DNA of 64,000 nt, from NCBI RefSeq assembly GCF_053078305.1, contig NZ_CP166879.1, one strand, 5' to 3'. Positions within the stretch are counted from its first letter, which is position 1; every line of letters begins with the position of its first letter. Below, one piece after another: positions 38,601 to 41,600 of the stretch. The position numbers are program-made.

Positions 38601-41600
38601 GCGGATCGCCACCACAAACACCGCCAGATAGCAAATCAAAAAGGTGGCGCTGGCAACGCTGGCGAGTGAGCCTAAATTCAGCGCCGCCGTCATCAGCATA
38701 ATCAACACCACGACAATAATGTTGCCCCAGGTACTCTGCCGCCACAGGGATTTATTCATTAGCTTCGGTAGTTCGCGTTCGCTGCCCATGTTGTCCATGA
38801 TGTTAAACACGGCGAACAGGTTCGCGTTGATGGCTGAAGCCGTCGCCAGTAAAGCGCCGATGACGACGATCACATAACCCACATGCCCGAGCAGCGGAGA
38901 AGCTGCCTGCGCTACGGCGGTATCGGCATATTTTTCTAACTCTAATGCCGATACATCGCTAAGCAAAACCAGCGCCAGCGAGATATAAAGCAACGTGGTA
39001 ACGCCAATCGCCACCAGAAACGCCCGTGGCATAATGACCTGCGGATCTTTCACTTTATCCGCCGCGTTCGCCATCATGCCAAAGCCCGCATAGGCAAGGA
39101 AGGTTATCCCGATACAGGAGAAGAACGCACCGGAGCTGGGGGGCGCAGAGACGGAAATATGCGCCGGTTGCAGCGACCAGACACCGGCAATAATCAGCAA
39201 TAACAGGATCATCATTTTAATGCCGACGAGGATCACCTCCAGCCGCCCTACCGCATGGTTGCTTAAGGAGTTGAAAAGCGTCATCACCGCAATGATCCCC
39301 AACGCGTAGAGCAAAATAAGGTGCTCCTCCTGGCTGCCTTCATGCAAAAACTGCACGGCATAAGCGCCAAAAGCACGGGCGACCATGGCGATGCTCACCG
39401 CCAGCGTCAACAGGTACAGTAACGAGAGCGCCAGCGAAAAGACGCCGTTGCCTAATCCGCGACGAAAGAAGTCGATAATGCCGCCATTGCTGGGATAGCT
39501 CGCCCCCAGACGCGCATAGGCATAACCGGAAAACATCGCCACAATACCGCCAAAAGCAAAGGCGACCCAGGTCGAGGCTTCCATTAGCAACGCAGCCTGC
39601 CCCAGCAGCGCGAAGATCCCCGCCCCCACCATTGCCCCAATGCCGATGGAAACGACGTTCCATAGACCGAGGGGTTTGTTACCGTTATTACCTTCCGTGT
39701 TCATCATGATCAGCCCTTAAACACGTTATAGCCGAGTTGCTTAGCGACCGATGCCACCATTTTTTGACCGCGAACACTGTTGCCTTCTTCGTCCAGCGGT
39801 GGTGAGAACGCGGCAATTCCCATCACTCCAGGGACGACCGCCAGAATACCGCCACCTACACCGCTTTTGCCCGGTAAACCAACACGATACGCCCAGTCAC
39901 CGGAGCGACCATACAGCCCTTCCATCATCATTTCGGCCAGAATGTACGGCACGTTGTCGGCCTGAAGAACGCGTTTATGCGTCAACGGATTCACACCACC
40001 CGCCGCCAGCGTCGCGCCAAGCGTTGCCAGTTCAACAGTATTGATGAGCGTGGAGCACTGACGGGTGTACACGTCACAGGCTTCCATTGCATCACAATAG
40101 AGATATCCGGCGGAGTACAGCAGCCAGGCAATGGCCCGGTTATGGAAGTTGGTTGTTTGTTCCGACTGGTTGACTTCGTCAGAGAGCGCTACCAGCTCAC
40201 CAGCCAGTTGCTGTTGGATATGTAAAATTCGCTGCCAGCGTTGTTCGGCATTTTCAGCGTTAATCAGGCTGGTGGTGGCAATAGCGCCAGCATTTACCAG
40301 TGGCGACAGCGGTTTGCCGCCATGCAACTCTAAGGCGATAACTGAGTTAAAGGGCAATCCGGTCGGGTCAGCGCCAATTTTGTCCTGTACCGCCTGCGGG
40401 CCGACATCTTCTAACGCAAGGGCTAACGTACAGACTTTCGAGATGGATTCCAGCGCAAAGCGGTAATCACTGTCACCCGCACTATAGACGTTGCCATCGC
40501 TGGTCACGATAGCCACTGCTGCCAGTTGACCAGGCACATTCGCCAGAAAGGGAATGTAATCGGCATTTTGTCCGCCGTTAAGTGAGTGAAATTGGGTGTA
40601 AGCCTGATCCACTGCCTGCTGTAATTTGTTTGCATCTAACATCTTTTGTTAACTCCTTTTTATAGATGCGGGAGGTAATTCCTCACCCCGGTGCCGATTT
40701 TCAGGCATCCTGATTTAACTTAGCACCCGCAACTTAACTACAGGAAAACAAAGAGATAAATGTCTAATCCTGATGCAAATCGAGCCGATTTTTTAATCTT
40801 TACGGACTTTTACTCGCCTGGGTTATTAATTTCTTGACCTTCCCCTTGCTGGAAGGTTTAACCTTTATCACAGCCAGTCAAAACTGTCTTAAAGGAGTGT
40901 TTTATGTCACAAACTATCGACCTGACCCTGGACGGCCTGTCCTGCGGTCACTGCGTTAAACGCGTGAAAGAAAGTCTCGAACAGCGCCCGGATGTGGAAC
41001 AAGCGGATGTGTCTATCACTGAAGCGCACGTTACCGGGACTGCCAGTGCAGAACAGCTGATCGAAACCATCAAACAAGCGGGTTATGACGCATCTGTAAG
41101 CCACCCAAAGGCTAAACCGCTGGCGGAGTCATCAATCCCGTCGGAAGCACTGACAGCGGTTTCTGAGGCGCTTCCGGCAGCGACCGCCGATGACGATGAC
41201 AGCCAGCAGTTGCTGCTGAGCGGCATGAGCTGCGCCAGCTGTGTCACCCGCGTACAAAATGCGTTGCAAAGCGTACCGGGCGTCACTCAGGCACGGGTAA
41301 ACCTGGCGGAGCGTACTGCGCTGGTGATGGGCAGTGCCTCCCCACAAGATTTAGTGCAGGCGGTGGAAAAAGCGGGCTACGGCGCGGAAGCGATTGAAGA
41401 TGACGCGAAACGCCGCGAGCGCCAGCAAGAAACCGCCGTCGCTACGATGAAGCGCTTCCGCTGGCAGGCAATTGTTGCACTGGCTGTGGGTATCCCGGTA
41501 ATGGTCTGGGGGATGATCGGCGATAACATGATGGTCACCGCTGACAACCGCAGCCTGTGGTTGGTTATCGGCCTGATAACCCTGGCAGTGATGGTTTTCG

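What the first reader, a model, noticed from the sequence alone, without database searches (positions are those of the whole stretch)
41104..41110. copA CCCAAAG recoding site is conserved
The slippery heptamer reported to give -1 frameshifting and a truncated CopA(Z) copper chaperone is intact at codons ~68-69, with an in-frame stop two codons into the -1 frame. Known biology; recorded because it is a feature that ORF callers miss.
Basis: established knowledge. Interest (0 to 1): 0.25.

Follow-up and report, generated by a model that had tools for sequence, protein, structure and literature searches.

The report
Known copA frameshift site, intact
This is the already-characterised E. coli copA ribosomal frameshift signal that makes a small copper chaperone from the start of the copper-pump gene; it is fully intact here, base-for-base identical to the K-12 element, and routine genome annotation still leaves it out.

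Summary
CCCAAAG lies at 41104-41110 in register C_CCA_AAG (Pro68-Lys69) of copA (40904-43408, +). After a -1 slip the ribosome reads GGC (Gly) and then TAA (41113-41115), which gives a 70-aa single-HMA-domain protein, CopA(Z). The window is 100% identical to E. coli K-12 from 101 nt upstream of the heptamer to at least 150 nt downstream. The K-12 reference record annotates exactly this joined CDS as "soluble Cu(+) chaperone". As a bare pattern the site is not unusual, so the evidence is comparative. All 17 Enterobacterales orthologues examined keep C_CCA_AAG or C_CCA_AAA with the -1 stop exactly one codon later, although the overlapping zero-frame residues vary. Synonymous sites are constrained across codons 68-92. 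A downstream H-type pseudoknot (S1 41116-22/41154-60; S2 41140-48/41170-78) is supported by compensatory changes. Distant CopA genes lack the element, and Rfam has no model for it. This is known biology with low novelty. The minor additions are an independent covariation test of the pseudoknot and predicted two- and three-domain frameshift products in Photorhabdus and Proteus.

The parts
40904..43408 (+). copA, full-length Cu(+)-exporting P1B-type ATPase (834 aa, zero-frame product)
   Evidence: ORF found. Pfam gives HMA x2, E1-E2_ATPase and Hydrolase. Annotated copA in 5422 E. coli genomes.
40904..41115 (+). Recoded CDS for CopA(Z): 40904..41110 joined to 41110..41115 after a -1 slip; 70 aa, MSQ...SHPKG
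   Evidence: Translation. Matches the 212-nt joined CDS 'soluble Cu(+) chaperone' in K-12 NC_000913.3. Single HMA domain, residues 8-62, E = 1.2e-13.
41104..41110 (+). Slippery heptamer C_CCA_AAG (Pro68-Lys69)
   Evidence: C_CCA_AAG or C_CCA_AAA in 17/17 orthologues. Pro68 is CCA in 17/17.
41110..41115 (+). -1-frame codons GGC (Gly70) and TAA (stop)
   Evidence: A -1 stop (TAA or TGA) lies exactly one codon after the heptamer in 17/17 orthologues, although zero-frame residues 70-71 vary.
41116..41126 (+). Pseudoknot stem S1, 5' arm: ACCGCUG (41116-22), G23 unpaired, then CGG extension (41124-26). The spacer from the heptamer is 5 nt.
   Evidence: The six core pairs have no unpaired cell in 16 sequences, and two of them show compensatory changes.
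41140..41148 (+). Pseudoknot stem S2, 5' arm GUCGGAAGC (lies inside the S1 loop)
   Evidence: 88.7% of cells paired; 3 pairs with two-sided changes.
41150..41160 (+). Pseudoknot stem S1, 3' arm: CUG (41150-52), A53 unpaired, then CAGCGGU (41154-60)
41170..41178 (+). Pseudoknot stem S2, 3' arm GCUUCCGGC
40834..40864 (+). copA promoter context: -35 TTGACC (40834-39), 19-bp spacer holding the dyad ACCTTCC-N7-GGAAGGT (40837-57), and -10 TAACCT (40859-64). This is the MerR-type CueR operator layout.
   Evidence: The sequence is read directly and is identical in K-12. Assignment as the CueR box rests on established knowledge and was not tested here. The 16-18 nt spacer scan finds no standard promoter, as expected for a 19-bp spacer.

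Best explanation
This is the programmed -1 ribosomal frameshift (PRF) cassette of E. coli copA. With tRNA-Pro on CCA and tRNA-Lys on AAG, a fraction of ribosomes slip one base back to CCC_AAA. The slip is promoted by an H-type mRNA pseudoknot that begins 5-6 nt downstream, where it sits at the mRNA entry channel and resists unwinding. According to the literature, the CopA nascent chain also contributes. Shifted ribosomes read GGC (Gly) and terminate at UAA, releasing the 70-aa CopA(Z). CopA(Z) is the first heavy-metal-associated domain of CopA made as a free cytosolic Cu(I) chaperone. Ribosomes that do not shift make the 834-aa pump. One mRNA therefore yields pump and chaperone in a set ratio, replacing the separate copZ gene found in other bacteria. 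Shown here: the sequence anatomy, identity to the K-12 element, conservation, synonymous constraint, and covariation of both stems. Taken from the literature: that frameshifting occurs efficiently and that CopA(Z) protects against copper. Inferred: the mechanical role of the pseudoknot at the entry channel.
For: Correct register, and a 70-aa product ending Gly-stop. 100% identity to K-12 from -101 to at least +150 nt around the heptamer, with an identical nascent peptide because all five upstream differences are synonymous. K-12 annotates the joined chaperone CDS. 17/17 Enterobacterales orthologues, down to about 50% N-terminal protein identity, keep C_CCA_AAR plus a -1 stop one codon later. 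Codon entropy is 0.28 in codons 68-92 against 0.73 elsewhere, Mann-Whitney p = 0.001; Pro68 is CCA 17/17, Pro72 is CCG 16/16 and Ala85 is GCG 15/15. For the pseudoknot, 90% of cells are paired against 18-45% in slid controls, 7 pairs change on both sides (6 of 500 shuffles reach that), and the covariation score is 0.167 against 0.03-0.06 (also with all 17 rows). The conserved amino-acid islands of the otherwise variable linker (PK, PL, PEAL.A, LPA) coincide with the heptamer and the four stem arms. The product is an HMA domain with a GLSCGHC motif and is similar to solved CopZ-type chaperones. The 121-nt element is at least 99% identical in 5404 of 5422 E. coli genomes. Literature: PMC9548414 (ribosome-profiling drop-off after the -1 stop; independent confirmation), PMC7558416 (slippery sequence, pseudoknot and nascent chain), PMC6771820, PMC5009743, and PMC6182138 (the copA pseudoknot stimulates -1 PRF in single-molecule assays).
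Against: No expression data for this strain can be obtained with these tools. On thermodynamics alone the pseudoknot is only modestly unusual: 52 of 1000 synonymous resamplings do as well, it is the second-best locus within copA, and the nested MFE fold has z = -0.82. The three outermost A-U pairs possible in E. coli (41114-16 with 41160-62) are mostly not conserved. I could not retrieve the primary paper, so I could not compare my stems pair by pair with the published pseudoknot. The 17 orthologues are not phylogenetically independent, and the structure was derived from the E. coli sequence, which inflates the percentage paired relative to the slid controls. Several orthologue loci came from records where copA is called as two ORFs further downstream. 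These may be assembly errors or pseudogenes.
Confidence: 0.93

Rival explanations
1. The short chaperone is made mainly from a separate short copA transcript that ends near the site, not by frameshifting. The heptamer would then be secondary.
For: The title of Drees et al. 2017, cited in PMC9548414 and PMC7558416, names 'differential transcript formation' alongside translational frameshifting. The stable structure at 41116-41178 could in principle stabilise or define an RNA 3' end.
Against: No intrinsic-terminator-like site (stem plus U-run) lies downstream of the heptamer. A short transcript without a frameshift would lack an in-frame stop. Strict conservation of heptamer register and of the -1 stop in 17/17 orthologues is explained by frameshifting, not by transcript truncation. 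The same paper also reports frameshifting, so the two mechanisms are not exclusive.
Confidence: 0.04
2. The conservation reflects protein-level constraint on the inter-domain linker (Pro-Lys, Pro-Leu, Pro-Glu-Ala-Leu, Leu-Pro-Ala). The heptamer, stop and stems would be by-products.
For: Pro68, Lys69 and Leu73 are invariant and Pro72 nearly so, along with other linker residues.
Against: Codon choice itself is fixed (CCA 17/17, CCG 16/16, GCG 15/15), and synonymous entropy drops to 0.28 from 0.73. Residues 70-71 vary (A/P/T/S; K/N/D/E), but always so that the third base of codon 70 is U and codon 71 starts AA or GA, which preserves the -1 UAA or UGA. Compensatory base-pair changes change the encoded amino acids yet keep pairing.
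Confidence: 0.02
3. The stimulator is a simple hairpin (S2 alone or S1 alone) rather than a pseudoknot.
For: The nested MFE fold contains S2 as a 9-bp hairpin. The rearranged orthologue L092 has an extended 11-bp S1 hairpin and no canonical S2.
Against: Both helices separately show two-sided changes (S1 4 pairs, S2 3 pairs) and about 90% pairing. They interleave, so both forming together requires a pseudoknot. The literature describes a pseudoknot whose S1 and S2 variants change PRF (PMC6182138; PMC7558416).
Confidence: 0.07
4. The heptamer is a chance occurrence with no function in this strain.
For: Bare and in-frame heptamers occur at chance frequency in the window.
Against: Identity to the characterised element, conservation in 17/17 orthologues, and near-invariance across 5422 E. 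coli genomes.
Confidence: 0.01

Closest known systems
E. coli K-12 copA / CopA(Z) -1 PRF element (Meydan et al. 2017, Mol Cell 65:207; Drees et al. 2017, Mol Microbiol 106:635)
   Same: It is the same element. The sequence is identical from -101 to at least +150 nt, as are the heptamer, the -1 Gly-stop, the 70-aa product and the nascent peptide.
   Different: Nothing within the element. There are five synonymous substitutions further upstream in MBD1 (codons 25-33), and the chromosomal neighbourhood differs: an O157-type siiEA/TolC island lies beyond ybaT.
E. coli dnaX -1 PRF (tau/gamma subunits), Rfam RF00382; present in this same window at 58756-58820 (-)
   Same: A chromosomal, non-mobile-element -1 PRF on an X_XXY_YYG heptamer ending in Lys AAG. 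The -1 stop is exactly one codon later. It yields a truncated functional product plus the full-length protein.
   Different: dnaX uses A_AAA_AAG and, by established knowledge, an upstream SD-like sequence plus a downstream stem-loop. copA uses C_CCA_AAG, a pseudoknot and, per the literature, the nascent chain. dnaX has an Rfam model and is flagged by PGAP; copA has neither.
Stand-alone CopZ/Atx1-type copper chaperones (for example E. hirae and B. subtilis CopZ)
   Same: A roughly 70-aa HMA fold with a CxxC motif. PDB sequence matches include CopZ 6ff2 and 1cpz. The role is a cytosolic Cu(I) chaperone for a P1B ATPase (PMC7558416).
   Different: They are encoded by a separate gene rather than carved out of the pump's own mRNA by recoding.
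Claimed human ATP7B -1 PRF at CCCAAAG
   Same: The same heptamer in the orthologous copper ATPase.
   Different: It was shown to be a fused-reporter artefact, with no ribosome-profiling drop-off and no synonymous-site or heptamer conservation (PMC9548414). The bacterial element passes both of those conservation tests here.

Membership tests
Canonical -1 programmed ribosomal frameshift cassette | Slippery heptamer X_XXY_YYZ in the zero-frame register | tested here: met
   C_CCA_AAG with codon 68 starting at 41105.
Canonical -1 programmed ribosomal frameshift cassette | Spacer of about 5-9 nt, then a stable downstream RNA structure | tested here: met
   5-nt spacer (41111-15), then a two-stem H-type pseudoknot with a stem-energy sum of -27.1 kcal/mol, supported by covariation. 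Thermodynamic significance alone is modest.
Canonical -1 programmed ribosomal frameshift cassette | Evolutionary conservation of heptamer, frame relation and stimulator, with suppressed synonymous variation | tested here: met
   17/17 orthologues. Codon entropy 0.28 against 0.73, p = 0.001.
Canonical -1 programmed ribosomal frameshift cassette | Measured frameshifting and detection of the trans-frame product | not testable with these tools
   Reported for the identical K-12 sequence in the literature (PMC9548414, PMC7558416, PMC6182138). No expression data for this strain.
E. coli copA/CopA(Z) recoding element | Sequence identity with the characterised K-12 element (heptamer, -1 stop, downstream region, nascent peptide) | tested here: met
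   100% identity over 41003-41260. Upstream differences are synonymous only. The K-12 joined CDS is 212 nt, the same as 40904-41115.
E. coli copA/CopA(Z) recoding element | Stems identical to the published pseudoknot model | not tested
   The primary paper and the relevant supplement are not held. This is moot for membership because the RNA sequence is identical.
HMA (PF00403) CopZ/Atx1-like metallochaperone (the product) | HMA domain with a CxxC metal-binding motif, about 70 aa, soluble | tested here: met
   PF00403, 51.7 bits against a 24.8-bit cutoff, residues 8-62; motif GLSCGHC. PDB matches to CopZ and MBD structures.
HMA (PF00403) CopZ/Atx1-like metallochaperone (the product) | Cu(I) binding and transfer to CopA | not testable with these tools
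   Literature only (PMC6771820, PMC7558416).
Rfam frameshift-element families | Match to a curated covariance model | tested here: not met
   No family reaches threshold at copA even at E <= 10, whereas DnaX RF00382 is found at 96.8 bits elsewhere in the window. This reflects the absence of a model, not the absence of an element.

The most novel reading that the evidence does not exclude
The cassette is not tied to a single-domain product. In the Proteus, Photorhabdus, Providencia and L091 lineages the heptamer is the variant C_CCA_AAA, and CopA has one or two extra N-terminal HMA domains upstream of the site. Frameshifting there would release tandem two-domain (139-140 aa) or three-domain (206 aa) soluble chaperones. 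The pseudoknot shows lineage-specific compensatory remodelling: the Proteus S2 is shifted outward, and L092 has an 11-bp S1 and a possible alternative S2. I could not check whether the primary paper already reported this.
Probability: 0.4. Interest if true: 0.35.

Novelty: already known. Interest (0 to 1): 0.15.

Why it matters
The site matters as an annotation point rather than a discovery. One of only three well-characterised recoding events in E. coli chromosomal genes (prfB, dnaX, copA) is silently omitted from essentially all pipeline-annotated genomes. Every PGAP-annotated E. coli record inspected here lists only full-length copA, so a functional copper chaperone is missing from their proteomes. 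dnaX is flagged because an Rfam model exists for it. The alignment and covariance model built here (89.6 bits on the window, 38.7 bits on a held-out divergent orthologue, at most 16.3 bits on 76 non-orthologous CopA loci) suggest an equivalent model for copA is feasible. The comparative tests also give the contrast that was used to dismiss the human ATP7B claim: the bacterial element passes the heptamer-conservation and synonymous-site tests.

Tried and rejected
(1) I tried to retrieve the primary paper (Meydan 2017) by PubMed id, PMC id and DOI; it is not held. The supplement of PMC6182138, which should show the copA pseudoknot and its S1/S2 variants, is not held either. The published base pairs could therefore not be compared.
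(2) Two paper reading term queries were malformed. An 'anywhere' literature search for CCCAAAG plus copA was swamped by 'clinicopathological'.
(3) The nested MFE fold of 41111-41200 is not better than shuffles (z = -0.82). I did not use it as evidence, because it cannot represent pseudoknots.
(4) The Rfam scan at E <= 10 gave only noise hits.
(5) The terminator scan, run to test the short-transcript idea, found nothing downstream of the site.
(6) The genome-contig scan was dominated by the universal MVGDGIND motif and yielded only 4 true orthologues among 80 loci. It was repurposed as a negative set: distant CopA genes lack the element.
(7) Isolated slippery heptamers near the end of an HMA domain in distant loci (for example L067 A_AAA_AAA and L082 T_TTG_GGA) were considered and set aside as probable chance. 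They occur in AT-rich or unrelated lineages, without conservation evidence and without a model hit.
(8) The 9-bp version of S1 that includes 41114-16 was rejected as the conserved structure, because those pairs are unpaired in 7-12 of 17 sequences.
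Full report
OBSERVATION. The heptamer CCCAAAG is at window 41104-41110 on the + strand. 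It lies in the 834-codon ORF 40904-43408. That ORF is copA: 5422 of 5426 complete E. coli genomes carry this stretch under a gene annotated copA, and the window is 100% identical to an O157:H7 chromosome over the 601-nt query. Its Pfam architecture is HMA-HMA-E1-E2_ATPase-Hydrolase. Relative to the ATG at 40904, the zero-frame codons are His67 CAC, Pro68 CCA, Lys69 AAG and Ala70 GCT, so the heptamer is in the canonical register C_CCA_AAG. After a -1 slip the reading is CCC AAA GGC TAA. This gives a 70-aa product, MSQ...SHPKG, with the stop (41113-41115) as the second -1-frame codon. All coordinates and statements in the finding are correct.

IS IT MORE THAN CHANCE? It is not, as a bare pattern. 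The heptamer occurs 4 times in the window against 7.8 +/- 2.7 expected. The window's 31 long ORFs (18,854 codons) hold 21 in-frame X_XXY_YYZ heptamers, 5 of which have a -1 stop within two codons. Two of those five are the two known -1 recoding sites of E. coli chromosomal genes: copA, and dnaX at 58795-58801 on the minus strand. The dnaX site is confirmed by Rfam RF00382 at 96.8 bits. The significance of the copA site must therefore come from context and comparison.

IDENTITY TO THE CHARACTERISED ELEMENT. I aligned the window to E. coli K-12 MG1655, the strain in which the element was characterised. The window is identical from 41003 to at least 41260, that is from 101 nt upstream of the heptamer to 150 nt downstream. 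The only CDS differences (40978, 40987, 40996, 40999, 41002) are third-position synonymous changes, so the nascent peptide is also identical. The curated K-12 record carries, besides copA, a two-piece joined CDS 'soluble Cu(+) chaperone' (YP_009518752.1) spanning 212 nt from the copA start. That is exactly 71 codons minus one base, and it corresponds to window 40904-41115. PGAP-annotated records list only full-length copA. The same PGAP record does flag the 'DnaX frameshifting element'. The difference is explained by Rfam, which has a DnaX model but nothing that detects the copA element even at E <= 10.

COMPARATIVE EVIDENCE. All 17 have an in-frame C_CCA_AAG (12 sequences) or C_CCA_AAA (5 sequences) at the end of the HMA domain that precedes the linker, with a -1 stop exactly one codon later. 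The zero-frame residues that overlap the stop vary (residue 70 is A/P/T/S; residue 71 is K/N/D/E). They vary only in ways that keep U at the third base of codon 70 and AA or GA at the start of codon 71, which preserves UAA or UGA in the -1 frame.

At the protein level, Pro68-Lys69 are invariant in an otherwise variable linker. The other conserved islands (Pro72-Leu73, PEAL.A, LPA) coincide with the RNA stem arms described below. Codon choice is fixed: Pro68 is CCA in 17/17, Pro72 is CCG in 16/16 and Ala85 is GCG in 15/15. Normalised codon entropy at conserved residues is 0.28 inside codons 68-92 against 0.73 outside (Mann-Whitney p = 0.001). Within E. coli, the 121 nt around the element are at least 99% identical in 5404 of 5422 genomes, and 29 of 30 evenly spaced ranks are 100% identical.

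DOWNSTREAM STRUCTURE. An exhaustive search for H-type pseudoknots in the 90 nt after the heptamer gave two perfect 9-bp stems: S1 41114-22 with 41154-62, and S2 41140-48 with 41170-78. On energy alone this is modestly unusual. 52 of 1000 synonymous resamplings do as well, and it is the second-best locus in copA. The nested MFE fold is unremarkable.

Covariation is the stronger evidence. On the clean 16-sequence alignment, 90% of pair cells are standard pairs against 18-45% when partners are slid by 1-3 columns. Seven pairs change on both sides (6 of 500 shuffles reach that), and the covariation score is 0.167 against 0.03-0.06. Including the rearranged L092 gives the same picture. Examples of two-sided changes:
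- S1: C17-G59 becomes A-U in Erwinia.
- S1: C20-G56 becomes U-A in Pantoea and L088.
- S2: G40-C78 becomes A-U in Photorhabdus and Proteus.
- S2: C42-G76 becomes U-A in Proteus.
- S2: G47-C71 becomes C-G in Photorhabdus and U-A in L091.

The conserved S1 is 41116/17-41122 with 41154-41159/60, plus a 3-bp extension (41124-26 with 41150-52) across one mismatch. The three outer A-U pairs possible in E. coli are not conserved. The conserved spacer is therefore 5-6 nt and contains the -1 stop. Both stems are independently supported and they interleave, so the structure is a pseudoknot. This agrees with the literature descriptions (PMC7558416, PMC6182138). I could not compare individual base pairs with the published model because the primary paper is not held. 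Since the RNA sequence is identical to K-12, this does not affect the verdict.

DISTRIBUTION. I built a covariance model from the 16 sequences (S2 as pairs, the rest as sequence). It scores the window's element at 89.6 bits and the held-out, rearranged orthologue L092 at 38.7 bits (E about 5e-8). Nothing else in the window scores above 13.4 bits. Across 76 distant CopA loci (at most 51% identity; Marinobacter, Vreelandella, Shewanella, Firmicutes, Bacteroidota and others) the best hit is 16.3 bits, and it is not at the N-terminus. None of these distant loci has a conserved slippery site after the first HMA domain. In this sample the element is confined to Enterobacterales-type copA.

MECHANISM.
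- Shown here: the heptamer register, the spacer, the conserved two-stem pseudoknot, the conserved -1 stop, and the single-HMA-domain product (PF00403, residues 8-62, GLSCGHC motif; similar to solved CopZ and MBD structures).
- From the literature: frameshifting is efficient. It is visible as a ribosome-density drop after the -1 stop and was independently confirmed (PMC9548414). It is stimulated by the slippery sequence, the pseudoknot and the nascent chain (PMC7558416). CopA(Z) acts as a copper chaperone that protects against copper (PMC6771820).
- Inferred from general -1 PRF knowledge: the pseudoknot, 5-6 nt from the A-site codon, sits at the mRNA entry channel during translocation. It promotes re-pairing of tRNA-Pro from CCA to CCC and of tRNA-Lys from AAG to AAA. 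E. coli's single tRNA-Lys pairs weakly with AAG, as at dnaX.

RIVALS. The first rival is a short-transcript route, named in the title of Drees et al. 2017. It is not excluded as an additional route, but it does not explain the conserved register and -1 stop, and no terminator-like feature is present. The second is protein-level constraint on the linker, which is contradicted by the synonymous-site and -1-stop data. The third is a hairpin-only stimulator, which is less likely because both stems covary. The fourth is chance, which is excluded.

CAVEATS. There are no expression data for this strain. The 17 orthologues are related, so the shuffle counts are not probabilities. The structure was derived from the E. 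coli sequence, which favours it over the slid controls on percentage paired, though not on two-sided changes. The protein search returned mostly truncated CopA entries, so several orthologue loci come from records where copA is split into two ORFs 200-300 codons downstream of the site. If these are pseudogenes, the observed conservation is if anything conservative.

VERDICT. The finding is real, correctly located and correctly interpreted. It is already-known biology: the E. coli copA/CopA(Z) -1 programmed frameshift, fully intact in this O157-type chromosome. Interest is low. The minor additions are an independent covariation and synonymous-site confirmation of the pseudoknot, evidence that an Rfam-style model is feasible, and the observation that in the Proteus, Photorhabdus and L091 lineages the cassette (C_CCA_AAA variant) sits after two or three HMA domains. 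That placement predicts multi-domain soluble products of 139-206 aa.

Noticed in passing
window 58756-58820 (-); heptamer A_AAA_AAG at 58795-58801; dnaX ORF 58153-60084 (-): The classical dnaX -1 frameshift element is also in this window (Rfam RF00382, 96.8 bits), with a -1 stop one codon after the heptamer, the same layout as copA. PGAP flags it as a sequence feature, whereas it flags nothing in copA.
   Followed up: yes
L089:1201-1815 (Proteus vulgaris), L006:2001-2417 (Photorhabdus), L091:1201-1614: In these lineages the heptamer is C_CCA_AAA and lies after three (Proteus) or two (Photorhabdus, L091) HMA domains. The predicted -1 products are 206, 140 and 139 aa multi-HMA proteins, compared with 70 aa in E. 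coli. Pfam confirms 3, 2 and 2 HMA stretches.
   Followed up: partly
L092:1398-1512: One orthologue has a rearranged linker. S1 is extended to a perfect 11-bp hairpin (CCGCUGUCAGC/GCUGACAGCGG), the canonical S2 is missing, and a possible substitute S2 exists (AUCAGC in the S1 loop with GCUGAU downstream). A further local hairpin lies in between. The covariance model still detects it at 38.7 bits.
   Followed up: partly
window 41101-41183 versus Rfam: Rfam 15 has no family for the copA frameshift element. A model built here from 16 orthologues separates true elements (38.7-89.6 bits) from 76 non-orthologous CopA loci (at most 16.3 bits), so a curated family looks feasible.
   Followed up: yes
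window 15842-36619 (-) and 36722-38077 (-): A 6925-aa ORF lies beyond ybaT. The corresponding gene in O157:H7 TR01 is annotated 'BapA-related adhesin SiiEA, frameshifted'. Next to it is a 451-aa TolC-family outer-membrane gene. In K-12, cueR follows ybaT directly. Here the giant ORF is uninterrupted, unlike the TR01 annotation.
   Followed up: no
window 43520-43597 (-), 43621-43698 (both strands), 50756-50833 (-), 8747-8824 (+): REP-type repeats match Rfam naRNA4 (RF02564). Two tandem copies lie immediately downstream of the copA stop. The window also has about 98 nt more than strain TR01 between copA and dnaX, possibly from repeat-copy variation.
   Followed up: no
window 44996-45079 (-): sroB (ChiX) small RNA, Rfam RF00368 at 82.1 bits, between ybaP and ybaK as in K-12.
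   Followed up: no
window 817 (-), 37202 (-), 34706 (-): Three other in-frame slippery-type heptamers have a -1 stop within 0-2 codons: T_TTC_CCT in the 804-aa ORF, G_GGG_GGT in the TolC-family gene, and G_GGA_AAT in the giant adhesin ORF. I have no evidence of function, and they are probably chance.
   Followed up: no
L083, L084, L087-L091, L093, L094 (upstream of copA): In most other Enterobacterales a MerR-family gene (cueR-like) lies divergently next to copA. In E. coli, glsA-ybaT (and in O157 the siiEA/TolC island) separate copA from cueR.
   Followed up: no
L084, L085, L089, L091, L092, L093 (downstream part of copA): In several public assemblies copA is called as two ORFs (an HMA-containing N-terminal part and the ATPase part), split 200-300 codons after the frameshift site. 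These are likely assembly errors or pseudogenes. The protein search with the N-terminal query returned almost only such truncated entries.
   Followed up: no
L067 (Propionigenium maris, codon ~137), L082 (Firmicutes UBA2203, codon 68), L008 (Thiotrichaceae, codon 119): Isolated slippery heptamers (A_AAA_AAA, T_TTG_GGA, A_AAA_AAA) lie about 45-55 codons after a CxxC motif, with a -1 stop 1-3 codons later, in distant CopA homologues. There is no conservation evidence and no model hit. They may be chance or independent analogues.
   Followed up: no
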